Of a stretch of DNA of 64,000 bases, positions 5,965 to 55,372 are shown in pieces; the stretch's first letter is position 1, and every line of letters begins with the position of its first letter. Below the pieces are notes generated by a model, which saw nothing but the letters and a program-made list of their open reading frames with translations, was not told where the DNA came from and made no database searches. A program made the translations under genes and the position numbers. The stretch comes from Gekko japonicus (taxonomy: Eukaryota): contig NW_015173673.1 of NCBI RefSeq assembly GCF_001447785.1, forward strand, positions 849,214 through 913,213. Reading direction: 5' to 3'.

Positions 5965-8900
5965 TATGAACTTTTAGATAGGCTGGTAGATAGTGCTGGG
6001 GAGGAACCAGTGGTTGTGGTGCATGTCGGCACCAACGATGTGCGGAAATGCAGTCGTGAGGTCCTGGAGGAGAAATTAGGTTGCTGGGCAGGAAACTTAG
6101 GTCCAGGGCCTCCAAGGTAGCTTTCTCAGAAGTGCTACCTGTTCCACGCGCAGGGCTGGAGAGACAGGCACAGATCAGGAGTCTCAATGCATGGATGAGA
6201 TGATGGTGTAGGGGGGGGAAGGTTTCAAGTTTTTTAGGCACTGGGATGCTTTTTGGAACAAGAGGGAGCTGTGCAAGTGTGACGGTCTCCACTTCTCCCG
6301 AGAAGGAACCAGGCTGCTGGTGCTTAAAATAAAAATGGTGGCAGAGCAGTTTTTAAACTGAATATTGGTTTGGGATGACTCGTCTCAGAGAGATGAGGGG
6401 GTACCTGTTGCTTTTCTACAGGGAGGAGGATTGAAATTGTCCACTGAGACCATGGCTAGACATGGACTGCCTGACAAGGTCTTGAGATAGCAAGAGGAAG
6501 GTTGCAGGCTTAACTTGTATGGGAAATTATAGCTGTTTCTATACAAATGCTAGAAGTGTCAGAGGTAAAATCGGGGAGTTGGAGTGCTTGGTGTCGGAGA
6601 GAAAAATAGACATTGTGGGTATTTCAGAAACTTGGTGGGATGAGGAAAACCATTGGGATACAGTGATTCACGGTTATATATTATATCGGAAGGACAGGGG
6701 GGGAAGGGTTGGAGGTGGGGTGGCTCTGTATGTCAGAGAGGGTATAAAGTCCAGAAAGATTGAGAGGCTAAGATAATTGGATTCGCTTCTGGAAGTTCTA
6801 TGGGTTGAAATAGGGGGGCCAAAAGGAAACTTAATACTGGGAGTTTGTTATCGCCCACCAGATCAAAAGATAGAGGAGAATTATAAAATGATGAATGCAT
6901 TAAAAATAGCAGCTAGACAAAAACACTGTGTCGTAATAGGAGATTTTAACCACCCACACATTGATTGGGTCAATATGTGTTCTAGTCGAGAAAAAGAGAT
7001 TGAGTTTCTAGACACTCTAAATGACTGTGCTATGAAGCAGATGGTCACAGAACCCACCAGAGGAGAGGCGATCCTTGATTTGGTCCTAAGTAACACTCAA
7101 GACCTGGTGAGAGATCCAGATAGATTGCAAAAATGTTATGCAACTGTTTCAGGGAACTGTTGGGAGGTGTAAAAATAACATAGGAACACATTTCCACATA
7201 TGGTGGAAATGCGAAAAAATACAAAGATTCTGGAAAACTACTAAACGATTGATAAAAGACATCACAGGGATTGATTTACCATTGACACCAGAAATCTTTT
7301 TATTAAACATTATACCAAACGGCCTTAAATACAATGAAACATGTATTATTACATATTTAGTAACAATGTCTAGAATATGTATTGCAAAAAACTGGAAATC
7401 GGACTGTATACCGAGTAGGGAAGAATTGATAAGCAACCTACTTGATGTAATTGAAATGGATAAATTAAACATGTTTTTTGGCGGGAAAATCAGAGGAAAA
7501 ATTTAAACTGAAATGGCAAAATGCCATTAAATAGTACGAGGAAAATCTGGAATGTTAACCCCCAATTGTTATAACATGACATATAAATGTATGTAACTAA
7601 TGAAAACTGAAAATAAAATGTTAAAAAAACAAAAAGACCTGGTGAGAGATGTAAAAGTGATTGAACTGCTTGGGAACAGTGATCATAATGTTGTGGAGTT
7701 CTACATTAGTATAAATAGGGAATTGGCCAAAAAGACTGACACAACCACTTTTAACTTTAAAAGGGGTAACTTCTCTGATATGAGGGGACATGTGGGGAGG
7801 AAACGGAAAGGAAAAGTAGAAAGGGTCAAAACCATAGGGGAAGCTTAGAAACTATTTAAAACTACAATCCTAGAAGCTCCCCCCAAAAAAATATTCCGCA
7901 GGTTAGGAAAGGCACAAATAGGCATAGGAAAAAGCCTGCATGGTTAACAAAGTAATGGAAAGTGTAAAAGGATTCCTTTAAGCACTGGAAAGCTAGTAAC
8001 AGTGAGGCTGATAAAACAGAACACAGGCTATGGCAAATAAAATGCAAGTCTGTGGTCAGGCAGGCAAAAAGGGAATATGAGGAGCATATAGCAAAAAACG
8101 TAAAGACCAACAATAAAACTTTCTTCAAATACATTAGAAGCAGGAAACCAGCCAGGGAGGCAGTGGGGCCCTTGGATGACCAAGGGGTAAAAGGAGTCGT
8201 GAAGGATGATAGGGAAATGGCTGAGAAGCTGAATGCATTTTTGCCTCTGTCTTCACTGCAGAAGATGAGAAGTGCTTGCCCACTCCAGAACCACTGATTT
8301 CGGGAGGGGTGTTGAAAGACCTGAGTCAGACTGAGGAGATGAGAGAGGAGGTCCTACGACTGATAGACAACTTAAAAATTGATAAATCACCAGCCCGGAT
8401 GGCATACATCNNNNNNNNNNNNNNNNNNNNNNNNNNNNNNNNNNNNNNNNNNNNNNNNNNNNNNNNNNNNNNNNNNNNNNNNNNNNNNNNNNNNNNNNNN
8501 NNNNNNNNNNNNNNNNNNNNNNNNNNNNNNNNNNNNNNNNNNNNNNNNNNNNNNNNNNNNNNNNNNNNNNNNNNNNNNNNNNNNNNNNNNNNNNNNNNNN
8601 NNNNNNNNNNNNNNNNNNNNNNNNNNNNNNNNNNNNNNNNNNNNNNNNNNNNNNNNNNNNNNNNNNNNNNNNNNNNNNNNNNNNNNNNNNNNNNNNNNNN
8701 NNNNNNNNNNNNNNNNNNNNNNNNNNNNNNNNNNNNNNNNNNNNNNNNNNNNNNNNNNNNNNNNNNNNNNNNNNNNNNNNNNNNNNNNNNNNNNNNNNNN
8801 NNNNNNNNNNNNNNNNNNNNNNNNNNNNNNNNNNNNNNNNNNNNNNNNNNNNNNNNNNNNNNNNNNNNNNNNNNNNNNNNNNNNNNNNNNNNNNNNNNNN

Positions 8901-47962: not shown

Positions 47963-50900
47963 TAGGGATGGGCACAAACGTCGTCATGAACCTAATTTCA
48001 TCACGAACATCGTCCTGTTCATGAGCCAAGGGTCATGCATTGCATCTGCAATGAACCTCCCACAAACGCTTATGGTTTTTACGGAGGTTCATGTGGTTTG
48101 TGTTGGCTGTTTGTGTGACAGACATGTTGGTGCCAATCAATTAATCATCAAAGCAACAGGAGAGATGGATTACTGCAGCTCTGAAAACACCAATAGTAAC
48201 CTCCAAACACCAAACAAAAATGGCCCTTGTGGGACCCAAGGGTGTGGAGGAAAGTGTGAAAGATGCCCGGTTAGGGGTGGAAGGAGATGAGGGAGAGGTG
48301 GAGGAGGGGTGCATGCTGTCGGCGGCACATGAGAGAGCGGAGTCAGAGATCCGAGGCTTGGAGGAGAAAGGGGAAGGCAGTCTCCTTTTTACAGAAGCGG
48401 CAGGAACTTTGGGAAACTGTATCATGGGGCAGTCAGAGGGAGGCTGGCAGATGAGACCAGGCCACAGAGGGGGACCCCAGGCAGTCTGGAAGTCGAGGAT
48501 CGAAGGGTCAGACGGAAAAGGAGGGTGATCTTTTGATAGAAGTGGCAGGAGTCCTGGGAAACCGGCCGGTGGGGCAGTCAGAGGGAGGCTGGCAGATGAG
48601 GCCAGGCAAAAAATGGGGATCCCAGGAGGCCTGGAAGTTGAGGATCAGAGGGTCACAAGGAGAAGGGGGTGATCTCCCTTTTATGTAAGCAGCGGGAGTT
48701 CTGGGAAATGGCCAGTGGAGCACTGTGGCAGAATTTGGGTTTGAATGAGCCTGGGACTTTACTCTATACATATTATGTAGTTTTTTCTATAACTGACATT
48801 TGTTTCTTGGTTCTGAAGAACCATAAACCTTTGCTCTTTTGCTGGCAGCCTAGGTGTTAAAGTTAATGACTTGCCTTGCAGATGTACCTTTGCTCGAATT
48901 CGTATCTGACATTCTCTGGCCTCCAAGTGCCAGGCTTCAAAGCCTAAACATTTCTGATATTGCAGTTAATAAAATATGTCTGGGCAAAAGTTCGTCTTTT
49001 TTTTTTAATAAATTTTTTATTGAGTTTCAACATGTAAATCTATAAACACAAAAAACAAAACAAATAACCAGACATACAACCATATAAAACAGATATCCCA
49101 AATATCTCCAGCTGTCCTCAGTATTACTAACAATGTTAATTTCTGTATCACAATAGTTATATTTAACATACATCACCTACATATATTAAGTTCTTTGTCC
49201 CTTCCATCATTTCCATTTATCATCAGCTCTTTTTCCAGCAAATTTAGTTAAATATGTTCATTACTTCTGAACTAGAAGACAGTTGATAAATAATAAAAAT
49301 AATCGTCTCTTAATACTAGATCAAACTTAGTCTCCATATTGTTACAGAAGTTGGATTACATTTATTGAATTTCATTAAACCTATGAAATTATAATCCAAC
49401 TTTTAATCAGAACTCAATGCGCGATACAAAGAGGGAGTATCTCAGCAACTAGGTGCTTCCTGGAATTTTCACACGACTGCCTATTTGCATGGCATAGGTA
49501 CATAAGAAGGAAGTTCTTCTAGCCAAACAATATCCACATTTTCCTGGCACAGAAATTTAAAAGAAACTAAGTAATTCCAGCAGGTTTAATCCTATTCTTT
49601 TCCTAGATTTTCATCACATATAGACCCCAACCCCTAATCATATCCATGAGTTACCTAGTCTTCTTGCAGAGTCTTCATTTTAGAATCCTATTTTTAAGAG
49701 CAATTTTTAAACAAACCATTTCAATACATATTTTACAGTCATGTTGTTGAGCCAATATATCTATTAATTAAATGTAGAGAAGAAAGATCTATATAACATA
49801 TTTTGTTAGCCCCCAGTTCTGTTTCTTTTTTTATCTCATTTTTCCTGCTTTCTTGCAGATGTCTTGGAGTTTTGTATTCCTTGGGGGAGGGTCCCCCCGA
49901 GTCTTTCCCTTGTTTGTAATTCTTTGTCTTCTTGGTCTCACTCCTTAGTCTACCTTTCCTCAGTACTTTCTTCTTTCTTCTTAAAAACTTAGTCCTCCTT
50001 TTCCCCTCCTTGACTATTTTAAAGTTTTCTACAAAAAAAGCCCTGCATATAATGTTGAACATAGTTGATTTAAAAAAAAATCGTGTTGCCCAACTGTTTT
50101 TCCCCATGCAGTCCTGCAGGAAGATTGGACCGCTAAACTATTGGTCAGCTTTTGGTCAATCATTTTGTTTGAAAGTTTGAGATGATGCTGTACTTCAGCA
50201 TGATCAGTTTAAATTATACTTTAGTAAATAAACCCCAAGGTTTGAAACTTCAGTCGTATGAATTTCATGTTCCATAATAGTTGTCAGCTTCTATGGTTAT
50301 CCCTGTGCTGTGCATCCAGTATAGAATTGTGCTCCCCTTACATAAAGTTTCTGCTTTCCTCCAGATTATAAAGTAGACTAATGTAACGGGGAAATAGTAC
50401 ATAAATCTGAATTTTTAGGTTTTCTTTGACATCTGGATAACAGGTGACATCACAAAAAATGTATCAATAAATATGCATTGGTGGCTTGTTTCCCACTACA
50501 CTTCCAGGAGAGCATATGTTGAAAGTGCCTAAACATTACCTGCTGTCTGACGAATGCTTAGGTCTATAATTTTCTTTTTTATAATATATTTATTAGGTTT
50601 TTAAACATAATAGGACAAACATATTTTATATCATAACACGTTTCTTTTTTGTAGGGTAACTTTAGGGGAATCACTGTTTCCCATCTCTTCATCTGTCGAG
50701 GTTTGAGTGTCACATTGCAACACAGAGTGTTCTTCCTCCAACTTCTCTCCATAGTTGTCATTTTGAGCCTGAGTTTTTTGTAGTGGCGTATTTGTATTTT
50801 TATTGTCATCTATAAAAATATCTGAAGGTTCTTTCAAGATTTTAGTCCATGCCTGCTGTAATGCTTGTTCCAATTTCTCCTTTAAAATTTGTTGAAAGCG

Positions 50901-52300
50901 CTCTGAGTTCAATTCGGCTTTAATTGCCTCGGTAACGAGCGCCGCCGCCATTTCCTCTTAGCCAGTTAATTGATTTCCCTTATCGTTGTTACGAAAATTT
51001 TTCAAAGTCTTTGCTTATTCTGATTATCAACTGTAGATATAAGTTAAGAACTGATAGATCCAGAAGTAAAGGTTTATTCTCTTACCCCTTCAGATGCTTA
51101 TATTATAGAGTCCTTCCTATTTAATACTTTCACTATTATTGCCTTTTAATTATGAATAGAACATTCAACAAACAGTTCACATTATTATAACCTTCTCATA
51201 GTCCCGGCCGCTTTCTTCATGCCAATAGGAAATCCGGGGAAAAAAGGGGGTAAGATCCTCTTCTCAAAGGAGTATCAATTCGTAGGTCCACCGATCGAGG
51301 TGATATATAAAAAAAAAAAGAAAAGAGAAAAGACACCCGTGCACGAAAGATAGTTGTTAAAATCACGGCTGGCTGCTGCTGTAGAGAAACACGGCAGCCA
51401 TGTTCCCTGCTGCCCGTCGCTTCTGCTTCAGGGCGAGCCGGTCTCGCCCCCGCCCTTGCCATAGAAACGGAGGGGCCGGCCAAGCCTCATGCCCTCGCTC
51501 TCCCTCCAGGAGAGGCGAGCAGAGCTCCCTCGAGCTTCGGGGGGCTCCGAAAAAGCGCACCGGAGAGGGCCGTCCTCGGGAGCTCCGAGAGACGCGCCCT
51601 GGCGCAGCGCTGCAGCGCCGGAAGACCTGGGCAAAAGTTCATCTTATCAACTTAGGATGGGCTGGTATCTGGCAAGTCTGGTATATTTTTTAATTGACTC
51701 CTCTCTTGGTTCCTATTGGCTGAAAAGAGTATAAAAAGATGGGTTTAGGCTTTGTTTTAGGCTGTTTGGCCAGCACCCCACCTAGGCTTGAGTGGGGTCT
51801 TGGTCCACTGTCCAGGAGTTTTCCTTGTTCTTTCTGAAGTGTACACTATATCGAGTATTGGGATTCTCTATATGCTATTGGGTATTGATATTGAATATAT
51901 GCTACCAGGCATAACTTGTGTATGGTTTTAGAATTAATAAATTCCCTAGCCAGACTCCACCCACCCATAGAAAAGAACCTTAATGGGGTTGGGGTTCCCA
52001 GGCAAAGGCCTGGACCCCTAAAATTCCCCTACAAGCAGTCAGAGGAAGACCAGCAGATGAAGCCTGGCCAAAAAGGGGGACCGAGGGAGACCTAGAAGTC
52101 GAGGACCACAAGGTTGGAAGGAAAAGGTGGGATCTCTCAGAAGAGGAGAATCAGCTGGAGACTCGCTGCAAGTTGGGGGAACATTCTACTGCATCACAAA
52201 CCTCACAAAGCCAAGTGGTTCAGTAAACGGGAAGGTTCATAGTTGACACAAACCATGAACTGGGATGAACCTCTGTTTTCTCAGTTTGTGCCCATCCCCA
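47963..52300. mobile_element. hAT-like non-autonomous element A (~1.7 kb native, split by the 2.6-kb retroposon)
   Basis: TIR TAGGGATGGGCACAAAC ... GTTTGTGCCCATCCCCA, TSD gttaggat / gttgggat. Internal ~150-bp repeats (cagtcagagggaggctggcagatgag) on both sides of the insertion. Confidence 0.75.
48999..51626 (-). mobile_element. Full-length RT-less polyadenylated retroposon (HAL1-like / L1-mobilised) with a 106-aa ORF at 50631-50951
   Basis: 19-bp TSD CTGGGCAAAAGTTC(G/A)TCTT (48980-48998 / 51627-51645), poly(A) and AATAAA at the 3' end, CpG-rich 5' end, no EN or RT motifs seen. Confidence 0.75.
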
Positions 52301-52308
52301 GTTGGGAT

Positions 52309-53190
52309 TAGGGGTGTACACACAAAAAAATCGGTATTTTTCAGGTTTGTGTGTACCAAACCTGAAAAATATTGGTATATATTGATATTCCTAAATCCAA
52401 ATATCAGTATGATACTGGAATTCAGGAAATAATCGGTATTGCTCCCTTTACTTGGCAAGAAGCCATTAAACTCCTCAGTTTCTCTCCTCCCCCACCCTGG
52501 AGCGGGGGGAGCAAAAGGGAATGCTGAAATGGCTTTTTCCTATTTAAACCAAACAGCTCAGTGGGTCCGCCTGTCAGCTCATTGGTTTAAATGCCTTCCA
52601 TTCAGTTGTTGAAGTGTGCCGCCGCAGTGCGACTCAGGGAGGGTAGGGAAGGGAAGAAATTTAAAGAGACTGTGGTGTCTTTAAATGCCTTCCTTTCATT
52701 TGCTGAGGTGTGCCGCTGTGGGGTGACTTTCCTTCCCTCACCAAGTCACCTCATGGCGGTGGTGCCATGCCTCGGCAAGTGAAGGGAAGGCATTTAAAGC
52801 CTTCACTCGCTAAAGTGTGCCGCTGCTGCGGTGAAAAATATTGGTATATATTGATATTCCTGAATCCAAATATCAGTATGATACTGGAATTCAGGAAATA
52901 ATCGGTATTGCTCCCTTTACTTGGCAAGGTGAACTTGCGCCACTTCCGGGTTCCTCGTGTGTGGCTTGGCTTTGTAGCACCTGGAAGGTGGGTGAACTTA
53001 TGCCACTTTGGCCTAGTGAAGCTGAGCCCGAATAAAAGCTGAATAATACTGGCTTTTATTTGGGCTCAGCTAGATCAGTAACTGAATCACATTAGAAAAT
53101 CTGATTCGGCTGAATAAACACCTGAAGAATACCGATAAGGTGTTTTTCGGGTATGTGTTCAGCTCGGTATATACCAAGCACACATCCCTA
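52309..53190. mobile_element. hAT-like non-autonomous element B
   Basis: TIR TAGGG(G/A)TGT(A/G), TSD gttgggat / gttaggac. Internal ~95-bp direct repeat at 52363-52458 and 52832-52928. Confidence 0.75.
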
Positions 53191-53490
53191 GTTAGGACCC
53201 AATATGCTTGGTTGTATTAAGGAAAGAAGGAAATAGAGGTTAGAACCAAATATCTTTTAAAGGGCTATGGCCCAAATTAGCACTTTGCCTTTGTTAATAT
53301 CTTCAGATACTGTTTTTTTGTAGCTTTTAAAGTCTTACTTTTTCATGCAAACATGCTATAAAGAGGGACTAGAAGCTTCTGAATCTTACAAGCTAATCAT
53401 TTCAGTAATGTCTGTTCTCTTACTAGAATCAACCATTTTAATTACTTGTGGTTTGGTTTTTAGAACATGCAGAGAGACAGTGCAAAGCAT

Positions 53491-53650
53491 CAATGCTCCT
53501 TCTAAGCTGTGGAGTCTTGTGAGCAAAAATTCTACTTTGTGAGCTACTGGCGTTAAAGTTGTGAGTGAGCGAATTGGCTGCTGCATAAATTAGTTTGCTC
53601 TGGAGCCATCCTTCCTGAGCTAAGACAAAAATGTGTGAGCCGGAGGGTAA
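53491..53650 (-). mobile_element. Truncated hAT MITE of the 10719 family
   Basis: Homologous to 16446-16605. One end is missing. Confidence 0.8.
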
Positions 53651-54910
53651 TTTTTTCCAATTAGACATATATCATCAGCAGCAAACATTTCATACTGTTC
53701 ATATAGTTTAATCTGTCTCCTATAAGTCAATAGTCTGTTTTTTTGAAGTAACATGTATGCATGTCTTCTTTAATTGTGTGGAAAAAAATTTCTAGGTTCT
53801 TTCTTTGAACTTTCAACCATCTCAACTCCAGGTTTTTATTGTCCATCTTCCTACCACGATGTTTTTTCCTCTCTCTATCCGGTTTTTCTTGACCTATAAG
53901 GAAACATCTTTGTACATTCTTTTTTAGTGTCTCTGTTTTTTTTTAAATAAAAAGGCTTTGTTGGTTTCTTTCCCTTTATTTTAATTGGTGTAGCTTGAGA
54001 TTCGGGGCACCCTTTTGTTTGGTAACATCCTATGGTCTCTACGTCCCTCTGGATAAACTGTCCCTCATTTCCCTCTTTCCCAACTTGCATTTGTATCAGT
54101 GTTCCCTCTAAGCTGAGTTAGTGTGAGCTAGCTCACAATTTTTTAGCCTCTGGCTCACACATTTTTGTCTTGGCTCAGGAAGGAGGGCTCCAGAACAAAC
54201 TAATTGATGCAGCAGCCAAATCACCGGCTCACAACTTGAATGCCAGTCGCTCACAATATAGAATTTCTGCTCACAAGACTCCACAGCTTAGAGGGAACAT
54301 TGCTTGCAATTGTAAACTATATGTCATTTCTGTTAAATTTACACACTTCTTCTTTGTTTAGTATGGATTGGGACTCAATGCACTCTTCTATTTGATCCTC
54401 TTTCTTTATTTCTAATTGTGAATTATGTGTTGTTTCTAAAAAATTTGCGCAGGCTTTTTCAATACCCTTTTGAATCTGTTCTCTTAAAATCTTCAGGAAC
54501 TGTTCCACGGACAGATCTCCCACAATCATATTCTCATCCATTTCCTCCTCTTGTGTTACCAACGCCATTTTAATTACGCAGTTCAATTCAATTCACTCAA
54601 GCTCTTATAATCATTCAAAAGACATAGCATTTTTCCTGTCCATTTTTCATAATAAGTCCGTGCCAATTGAAAGAAATCCAGTTCGGCACAGCAACAGGCA
54701 GCTTTCGGTTCGTTCCAAGCCGCCTGACCCCTTTTCGCTCCTTTTGGAGCCTCCCGGATTCCGGGAGAGCTCCGCCAGACCTCCTGGAGAGAGGTCTGGA
54801 GTAGGGGGCTCTGTTTTGGCCCCTTCTGCAGCTGGCAAATGGGGGGGGTGTCCATTACTGCCCCAAAGCAGGAGCGGCTTGTGGGGGAGCAGATGGAGCC
54901 CATGTTCTAT
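53651..54910 (-). mobile_element. Second, diverged retroposon-like element with an ORF related to 50631-50951 (boundaries approximate)
   Basis: GC-rich hairpin-forming 5' region, ORF 54317-54586 with GDLSVEQFLKILREQIQKGIEKA, A-rich sense strand. No TSD found. Confidence 0.55.
54097..54302 (+). mobile_element. hAT MITE of the 10719 family nested in the second retroposon-like element
   Basis: Complete TIRs CAGTGTTCCCTCTAAGCTG ... CAGCTTAGAGGGAACATTG. Confidence 0.88.
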
Positions 54911-55372
54911 GCAGCCGCAGTCACCCATTTTAACTATGTTTGGATTTAAAATTCTAACTAATAACACAGAAGAAGCCCAAGAAGCAAATTTGTGAGTACA
55001 ACTACTTCTAATTTTGAAATAAAGAAAATTGATGGCGCTATTACCCCAAAATTATCTGCTCGTAAAGGAGAGGTTTAGTGGCCAGAAGATGATTAGGAGC
55101 GGCAGGAATATTTTCTGGAGTGTTTGCAACATTGGAGAACTTTTTCTTGTTTTTTCTTTCCATTGGCAGGTCTATAATTTTCAATGAATGTAGTATGAGC
55201 CACAAATGCCTGAATTGAAAGAAACAACTTAGGAAAGAAGTGGTACCTACCTGTTTTGTTTAAGTAACCGAGGCACAAAGATCAATTTCAGCTTCTGGCT
55301 GAGTAAAGATATATTGGTGCGCTGACAATATAGAATGGGATCAAGATAATGCCTTTGCACTTTATTTTAACA

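What the first reader, a model, noticed from the sequence alone, without database searches (positions are those of the whole stretch)
48999..54910. Candidate undescribed family of RT-less, L1-mobilised retroposons encoding a small helical protein
Seen: 48999-51626 (minus) has TPRT hallmarks (19-bp TSD, poly(A), AATAAA) and an intact CpG-rich 5' end, yet is only 2.6 kb and shows no endonuclease or RT motif. Its clearest ORF (50631-50951, good Kozak aaATGG) contains AELNSERFQQILKEKLEQALQQA. A second element about 2 kb away shows no obvious DNA-level identity but has an ORF (54317-54586) with GDLSVEQFLKILREQIQKGIEKA. The shared pattern is [ED]LxxExFxxIL[KR]Ex[LI]xxx[LI]xxA, followed by an acidic stretch and downstream Lys-rich frames. 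Both leaders form GC hairpins (e.g. CCAGACCTC-n7-GAGGTCTGG). Inference: protein-level similarity despite DNA divergence suggests selection on a mini-ORF1 in non-autonomous elements, analogous to mammalian HAL1 (ORF1-only L1 derivatives). The protein may co-assemble with L1 ORF1p through a coiled coil.
Basis: partly seen in the sequence, partly recalled or inferred. Interest (0 to 1): 0.72.

Follow-up and report, generated by a model that had tools for sequence, protein, structure and literature searches.

The report
Gecko retroposons carrying an orphan protein
These are two damaged copies of a large family of short jumping genes, likely in a gecko, that have no copying enzyme of their own, likely borrow it from LINE-1 elements, and carry one conserved protein that matches no known family and likely helps package their own RNA.

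Summary
The family is real; the two window copies misrepresent it. Both belong to a large superfamily of RT-less retroposons: 323 and 1,582 candidate loci for its two clades. In 38 of 100 sampled loci there are exact 13-21-bp TSDs (median length 2.0 kb). Intact copies have one ORF of about 190-235 aa: helix, acidic tract, basic tract, helix. The ORF is under purifying selection (omega 0.64 and 0.44). The two clades are homologous in protein (HHalign 95%, E 1.5e-8) and in a 270-nt leader. The leader and the poly(A)-signal context are distantly related to one L1 lineage of the same genome, so L1 is the likely mobiliser and ancestor. The protein shows no significant match to ORF1p of three L1 lineages, Pfam or PDB; database relatives are Gekko only. 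Its first helix is not a heptad coiled coil. The 2.6-kb length and 106-aa ORF are artefacts: pieces of copy 2, with its TSD and flank, are interleaved inside copy 1, probably through misassembly. Copy 2 has an inverted 5' end. Verdict: HAL1-like in lifestyle, HAL1 membership not shown. Repbase and Dfam could not be checked.

The parts
51627..51645 (-). Element 1 (clade A) 5' target-site duplication, 19 bp
   Evidence: one mismatch to the 3' copy
51360..51626 (-). Element 1 conserved ~270-nt GC/CpG-rich leader, starts with CTTCCGG; likely internal Pol II promoter; distantly related to L1 lineage 1a 5'UTR
   Evidence: lizard L1 5' consensus in PMC5381506 (passages)
51117..51195 (-). 79-nt foreign piece inside element 1's 5'UTR; matches the 3'UTR of the element 2 family; absent from 5 of 5 aligned element 1 relatives
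50631..50951 (-). First half of element 1's ORF (N-terminal helices and acidic tract); the stop lies in the foreign piece that begins at 50641
50575..50641 (-). 3' end of element 2 (AATAAA at 50589-50594, short A tail), lying inside element 1
50560..50574 (-). Element 2 3' target-site duplication, 15 bp, identical to 55168-55182
50027..50559 (.). Largely single-copy DNA read as the downstream flank of element 2, lying inside element 1
   Evidence: contigs of runs X1 and X2 cover it and run on unlike the window at 50641
49742..50020 (-). Second half of element 1's ORF (basic tract and EYK..RH C-terminal motif), 93 codons without a stop
48999..49741 (-). Element 1 3'UTR with AATAAA (49016-49021) and A tail
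48980..48998 (-). Element 1 3' target-site duplication
55168..55182 (-). Element 2 (clade B) 5' target-site duplication, 15 bp
54684..55167 (+). Inverted 5' segment of element 2 (family nt ~1-485, including the leader and the quoted hairpin); twin-priming-type inversion
54317..54568 (-). Start of element 2's ORF, 83 codons to a premature stop; relatives read on to about 180-220 aa
54097..54302 (.). 206-bp very-high-copy MITE with 19-bp terminal inverted repeats, inserted in element 2's ORF
53651..54096 (-). Rest of element 2's ORF, frameshifted (basic tract and KERRH-type motif region); element 2 breaks off at 53651
53491..53650 (.). Truncated second copy of the same MITE, opposite orientation, at the break of element 2

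Best explanation
Both elements are damaged copies of a large, diverse family of ~2-kb RT-less retroposons with one conserved ~200-aa protein; they likely descend from one L1 lineage, are likely copied by L1 ORF2p in trans, and their protein likely binds and packages their own RNA. Shown: multi-copy status, variable TSDs, poly(A), no ORF2, one ORF under purifying selection, two homologous clades with many parallel young sublineages, and leader and 3'-end similarity to L1 lineage 1a. Inferred: the leader is an internal Pol II promoter; the polyadenylated RNA is translated; the protein uses its basic tract to coat its own RNA in cis and its amphipathic first helix to oligomerise or dock on a partner; borrowed ORF2p nicks A-rich targets and primes on the poly(A) tail. 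Selection acts among source elements, since a copy whose protein works leaves more copies. Whether the protein is a remodelled ORF1p that lost the coiled-coil/RRM/CTD core (about 50%) or a replacement is open. The window's interleaving of the two copies is likely a misassembly (about 70%) or a private rearrangement.
For: Copy number: 150 of 150 scored loci match for each clade, from 323 and 1,582 candidates; 144 of 150 clade A matches have no stop inside. Anatomy: exact 13-21-bp TSDs in 24 of 60 and 14 of 40 sampled loci, median 2,031 bp, 33 of 38 under 2.5 kb. No L1 protein match in 37 of 38; the exception is a 4.4-kb copy with an RT-like stretch inside, read as a nested insertion. Selection: omega 0.64 (52 clade A ORFs; N helix 0.475, middle 0.83, C motif 0.36) and 0.435 (15 clade B ORFs; N 0.19, middle 0.68), each better than omega=1; 18 of 42 ORF indels keep the frame against 75 of 383 in UTRs, p 0.001. 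L1 link: a profile of 16 lineage-1a L1 5' ends scores 35 of 100 element leaders at 5 bits or more, at the colinear position, against 0, 2, 0 and 0 of 100 in four null sets; the pre-AATAAA motif is in 6 of 9 lineage-1a L1s, 0 of 11 lineage-1b L1s and 39 of 641 background sites; intact L1s with ~1,250-aa ORF2 and 13-20-bp TSDs exist in the genome; element 2 has a 5' inversion. Protein: net charge +14 in the third quarter in both clades; confident first helix in both models.
Against: No experiment or RNA evidence shows that the protein is made; RNA reads on these copies are sparse. RNA binding and oligomerisation rest on composition and analogy only. No significant homology to any ORF1p, so the HAL1 analogy cannot carry function over. 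The loci were found with the N-terminal helix as query and the omega sets kept only intact ORFs, which biases N-terminal omega downward and intactness upward; the C motif was not selected for and still gives 0.36 in clade A (clade B C motif not computed). The L1 leader similarity is weak per sequence (best 17.9 bits). 62 of 100 sampled loci gave no exact TSD of 13 bp or more. The 3' motif was read off the elements first, so its 34 of 37 count there is circular.
Confidence: 0.62

Rival explanations
1. True HAL1 members: the ORF is simply L1 ORF1p, diverged or clipped beyond recognition, and works by co-assembling with ORF1p of autonomous L1s.
For: Leader and 3' end point to L1 lineage 1a. The ORF sits where ORF1 would. 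The clade B first helix aligns colinearly with the pre-coil segment of lineage-1a ORF1p (E 0.034; 0 of 25 column shuffles reached the score), not with lineages 1b or 2. Lineage-1a ORF1p also ends in an acidic-then-basic tail. Unchecked earlier notes report half-L1s, one with a clipped ORF1, in this genome.
Against: HHalign probability is only 1.5%, one of ten tests, and clade A does not repeat it (E 0.31). No RRM or CTD in sequence or models. Helix periodicity 3.9, not heptad. A search of 1.84 billion representatives with the N-terminal profile returned 9 proteins: 8 labelled Gekko (no ORF1p label) and one repetitive protein that looks unrelated and was not looked up.
Confidence: 0.22
2. The protein is not an RNA-packaging factor but a counter-defence or competition factor (for example it blocks a host silencing factor or diverts ORF2p from L1 RNA), acquired de novo or by capture.
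For: No ORF1p homology; fast divergence (25-29% aa identity between sublineages whose leaders are 89-91% identical); short conserved helices in a disordered chain are typical docking motifs (own knowledge).
Against: A factor acting in trans would help dead copies as much as its own and is harder to keep under purifying selection in many parallel lineages; no region shows omega above 1 on average; no partner identified.
Confidence: 0.1
3. Processed retrocopies of a fast-evolving host germline gene rather than a self-propagating element.
For: TSD, poly(A) and 5' inversions are also made by L1 on cellular mRNAs (own knowledge). A spliced parent would be hard to see in these capped searches.
Against: The tree is bushy, with near-identical pairs on many separate branches (6 pairs at 95% or more among 52 clade A ORFs whose median identity is 52%), so many sources were active in parallel. 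The leader resembles an L1 5'UTR. No named host gene matches; two database proteins have the first helix fused to retinoschisin or reelin gene models.
Confidence: 0.04
4. Independent post-insertion internal deletions of ordinary L1 copies.
For: L1-like ends.
Against: The same ~2-kb layout recurs at unrelated sites with different TSDs; no ORF1 or ORF2 remnant in 198 frames.
Confidence: 0.02

Closest known systems
HAL1 (half-L1) of mammals (Smit 1999; Bao and Jurka 2010, not held; seen through passages of PMC5753468, PMC3627910, PMC5786205)
   Same: Non-autonomous, L1-type ends, one ORF kept intact over long times, no ORF2, likely moved by ORF2p in trans.
   Different: HAL1 encodes recognisable ORF1p. 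This protein has no detectable RRM, CTD or heptad coiled coil and is about 200 aa. The host is a reptile, and many lineages are active in parallel.
ORF1-present bipartite non-autonomous LINEs: HeT-A (Jockey) and Ag-Sponge (CR1), as grouped in PMC5786205 (passages)
   Same: LINE-derived 5' and 3' parts around a single protein gene, proposed to multimerise with the partner's proteins.
   Different: Their protein corresponds to the partner's ORF1p or Gag; here that correspondence is not detectable. The partner clade is L1.
Lizard clade-1 L1 (PMC5381506, passages)
   Same: 5' extremity consensus GACTTCCGG...ATGGCG; a CTTCCGG-like start is in 20 of 38 elements; 5'UTR more conserved than the ORF.
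   Different: Those elements are ~6 kb with ORF1p and ORF2p. My labels 1a, 1b and 2 for the genome's L1 lineages are working labels, not tied to that paper by a tree.

Membership tests
HAL1 / ORF1-present non-autonomous L1 | Multi-copy with TPRT hallmarks (variable TSD, poly(A)) | tested here: met
   38 of 100 sampled loci with exact 13-21-bp TSDs after AATAAA and an A tail
HAL1 / ORF1-present non-autonomous L1 | No ORF2 (endonuclease, RT) | tested here: met
   Best E 1.1 over 198 frames of 33 copies; 1 of 38 copies (4.4 kb) holds an RT-like stretch read as nested
HAL1 / ORF1-present non-autonomous L1 | 5' and 3' ends derived from an L1 | tested here: met
   Weak but colinear and above four null sets: 35 of 100 against at most 2 of 100; 3' motif in 6 of 9 lineage-1a L1s against 39 of 641 background
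HAL1 / ORF1-present non-autonomous L1 | The ORF carries the ORF1p RRM and CTD core | tested here: not met
   0 of 63 members hit an L1 Pfam family at E 0.1 (Pfam is weak here, 1 of 3 true gecko ORF1p hit); no HHalign match to the genome's own ORF1p alignments; both models lack a beta sheet
HAL1 / ORF1-present non-autonomous L1 | The ORF is homologous to any part of ORF1p (N-terminus or tail) | tested here: inconclusive
   Clade B versus lineage-1a N-terminus E 0.034, probability 1.5%; the other 9 of 10 tests E 0.2 or more
HAL1 / ORF1-present non-autonomous L1 | Heptad coiled coil for trimerisation | tested here: not met
   Hydrophobic period 3.9 in both clades; power at 3.5 is 0.09-0.12 of the peak (first helix only)
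HAL1 / ORF1-present non-autonomous L1 | Needs its own ORF in cis and ORF2p in trans | not testable with these tools
   Purifying selection is indirect support; needs an assay
Processed pseudogene family | A single spliced parent gene | tested here: inconclusive
   None seen among 300 scored protein hits, 100 of them inspected further; searches are capped
Known RNA family in the leader (ribozyme, 7SL, tRNA head) | Rfam match | tested here: not met
   6 loci scanned; one match, a microRNA model at E 0.067 far under its cut-off
Existing Repbase or Dfam entry | Library match | not testable with these tools
   No such library is held

The most novel reading that the evidence does not exclude
A long-lived superfamily of L1 parasites that replaced L1's own ORF1p with an unrelated protein: a vertebrate non-LTR element whose single selected gene is neither ORF1p nor ORF2p, used to capture L1's reverse transcriptase for its own RNA, with over a thousand copies in dozens of parallel lineages.
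Probability: 0.3. Interest if true: 0.82.

Novelty: new variant of a known kind. Interest (0 to 1): 0.62.

Why it matters
Protein-coding passengers of L1 have been described as HAL1, which keep ORF1p. Here a passenger keeps a selected protein without the RRM, CTD or heptad coiled coil thought to be needed. If it works in cis, it shows the minimum a passenger must encode to capture ORF2p, and offers a natural handle on what ORF1p does, which is still not fully understood. Practically, a family of at least hundreds to over a thousand copies is being annotated as hypothetical proteins or fused into host gene models in Gekko records.

Tried and rejected
Pfam on the window peptides and on 11 and 63 family members: only scattered weak hits; a SCAN hit (E 0.038, then 1 of 63) was dropped as chance. 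Word-based protein searches with 11 mixed sequences and, for longer proteins, with 63: nothing at E 1 (weak evidence). PDB sequence search: best E 3.9. Foldseek: nothing for either model; VIA-align: best Z 6.2, single generic helices. PF17490 found nothing in the genome. The idea that the two extra pieces in element 1 are introns (both can be read GT..AG) was rejected when they matched element 2's 3' part and TSD. A search with element 1's last 202 nt gave 14 matches, which I did not inspect further. No ORF1-only copy with a TSD was found among 30 lineage-2 ORF1 loci (flanks only 1.5 kb). Leader structure: 1 of 77 predicted pairs beats a tree-simulated null, 5 of the top 50 covarying pairs are in the structure (0.12 expected); folding z is -1.07 for element 1 and -2.28 for element 2: suggestive only. 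No RNA holder was listed. The complex predictor and the ESM Atlas were not available, so oligomerisation and remote look-alikes are untested. Eight literature searches showed no description of this family in the listings; most subscription papers are not held.
Full report
Observation. Element 1 (48999-51626, minus strand) is bounded by a 19-bp duplication with one mismatch, ends in AATAAA and a short A tail, and starts with a CpG-rich leader. The two quoted peptides are real and weakly alike as a pair (13 of 43 identical, E 1e-4). Both elements are repeats: DNA searches of the genome gave 78 and 63 matches from 40 scored candidates each.

The window copies are atypical. Full relatives of element 1 are about 1.85-2.0 kb, with 16-24-bp TSDs and one ORF of 191-235 aa. 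The window copy has two extra pieces, 79 nt in the 5'UTR and about 615 nt in the ORF. Both begin with or consist of the 3' part of the element 2 family. The larger piece holds element 2's AATAAA and A tail, then a 15-bp sequence identical to the one at element 2's other boundary (50560-50574 and 55168-55182), then flank. So the two insertions are interleaved. Element 2 also has its first ~485 nt inverted (54684-55167), a MITE in its ORF, and breaks off at 53651 inside a second MITE. In two other DNA runs (one study), the contig covering the piece up to 50641 runs on for 28-30 letters unlike the window, and no listed contig bridges that joint. I read this as a misassembly (about 70%) or a private rearrangement; contigs show presence, not absence, and I could not see those letters. 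Either way the 2.6-kb length and the 106-aa ORF are not family features.

The family. Protein searches with the first helix returned 150 of 150 scored loci for each clade, from 323 (clade A, element 1) and 1,582 (clade B, element 2) candidates; 144 of the 150 clade A matches have no stop inside. I fetched 60 clade A loci (my choice among the weaker hits, favouring long contigs) and 40 clade B loci (20 chosen for long frames, 20 spread down the list). Exact TSDs of 13-21 bp were found in 24 of 60 and 14 of 40; lengths run 1,535-4,432 bp, median 2,031. The usual layout is a 550-630-nt 5'UTR, one ORF, a 3'UTR, AATAAA and an A tail. An ORF was called in 60 of 60 and 37 of 40; 45 and 14 were clean and full length. 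ORF1 and ORF2 profiles from the genome's own L1s find nothing in 198 frames of the 33 copies under 2.5 kb (best E 1.1). The tree separates A from B and is bushy, with near-identical pairs on many branches, so many source elements were active in parallel.

The protein. Clades A and B are homologous over 147 columns (HHalign 95.5%, E 1.5e-8; reversed control E 0.16). The layout is an amphipathic helix, an acidic tract, a basic tract (net +14) and a C-terminal motif with an RH/KH core. Models show confident N-terminal helices, a disordered linker and a C-terminal helix, with low overall pTM (0.24 and 0.30). Codon models give omega 0.64 for 52 clade A ORFs (N 0.475, middle 0.83, C 0.36) and 0.435 for 15 clade B ORFs (N 0.19, middle 0.68; C failed), all better than omega=1 (p 6e-4 or lower). 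Frame-keeping indels are 18 of 42 in ORFs and 75 of 383 in UTRs across 19 pairs (p 0.001). These sets were chosen for intact frames and found through the N helix, which biases them. Database relatives are Gekko only: 8 of 9 hits in 1.84 billion representatives (the ninth is a repetitive protein that looks unrelated and was not looked up) and 4 of 4 in the word search. The host is therefore likely a Gekko gecko.

Link to L1. I collected three L1 lineages from the genome (working labels 1a, 1b, 2). The first ~270 nt are shared by both clades (53 of 60 and 35 of 40 loci), including the two window elements once the inversion is undone (55%). A profile of 16 lineage-1a 5' ends scores 35 of 100 leaders at 5 bits or more and 19 at 10 or more, at the same relative position; four null sets give at most 2 and 0. 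In the other direction the leader profile scores 3 of 40 lineage-1a loci at 8.6-10.5 bits and none of 20 lineage-1b or 30 lineage-2 loci above 2.7. The motif before AATAAA occurs in 6 of 9 lineage-1a L1s, 0 of 11 lineage-1b and 39 of 641 background sites. The 5' extremity matches the lizard clade-1 consensus in PMC5381506 (abstract and passages). The protein, by contrast, does not match ORF1p of any lineage as a whole (the first lineage-1b set held three non-ORF1 rows, removed). One of ten focused tests is borderline: clade B helix against the lineage-1a pre-coil segment, E 0.034, probability 1.5%; clade A does not repeat it. The helix has a 3.9-residue hydrophobic period, not a heptad.

How it likely works. 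The leader likely acts as an internal Pol II promoter (inference from CpG richness, position and L1 kinship). The polyadenylated RNA is likely translated into the 200-aa protein, which likely coats its own RNA through the basic tract and oligomerises or docks through the first helix (inference from composition and from selection in many parallel lineages, which fits a benefit in cis). L1 ORF2p likely supplies nicking and reverse transcription; the long variable TSDs, A tails and the 5' inversion fit this (established L1 hallmarks, own knowledge). None of these steps was tested by experiment, and RNA reads on these copies are sparse. The leader folds into hairpins with several pair types, but only 1 of 77 pairs beats a tree-based null.

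Comparison with what is known. It works like HAL1 and the other ORF1-present non-autonomous LINEs (PMC5753468, PMC3627910, PMC5786205; passages only; the HAL1 paper itself is not held). It fails the defining test of HAL1, a recognisable ORF1p core, so I do not file it there. Eight full-text searches (listings seen; PMC8535693 passages) showed no description of the family, but Repbase and Dfam could not be checked and supplements were not searched. Earlier AI notes on this genome describe a similar 2.25-kb element and two half-L1s, one with a clipped ORF1; sequence look-ups did not link them to this locus, so they are leads only.

Verdict. Observation partly confirmed, interpretation partly supported. 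A real and apparently undescribed superfamily: a new variant of protein-coding L1 passengers, interest 0.62. About 30% that the protein is unrelated to ORF1p, which would be more surprising.

Noticed in passing
window 50027-55182: Two retroposon insertions are interleaved (element 2's tail, TSD and flank lie inside element 1); the 50641 joint is not seen in contigs of two other runs. Likely misassembly; otherwise an unusual templated rearrangement.
   Followed up: partly
P0003 and P0012: The family's first helix forms the N-terminus of a predicted Gekko japonicus retinoschisin and of a Gekko kuhli reelin-domain gene model: gene-model errors or real exon capture.
   Followed up: no
L003 versus L027 and L028: The first 270 nt are 89-91% identical while the ORFs are 48% identical in DNA and 25-29% in protein: strong constraint on the leader or leader swapping between sublineages.
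   Followed up: partly
L213, L229, L237 5' ends: Some clade B copies start with a GCATGC(GC)-type motif instead of CTTCCGG, recalling the other lizard L1 5' consensus in PMC5381506.
   Followed up: no
window 54097-54302 and 53491-53650: A 206-bp MITE with 19-bp inverted ends and very high read depth; the second copy seems absent at that place in run X2, so it may be polymorphic.
   Followed up: no
G000 (e.g. L321-L324, L287-L288): Several young L1 families with intact ~1,250-1,265-aa ORF2 and near-identical copies; candidate donors of ORF2p.
   Followed up: partly
L017 and L019: Two different contigs share a nearly identical 5' piece of a further sublineage and about 1 kb of the sequence that follows: duplication or uncollapsed haplotypes.
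   Followed up: no
window 52363-52459 and 52832-52928: A 97-bp direct repeat, 99% identical, 469 bp apart, inside another repeat.
   Followed up: no
window 7165-7488: 3' fragment of an L1 ORF2 (50% over 108 aa).
   Followed up: no
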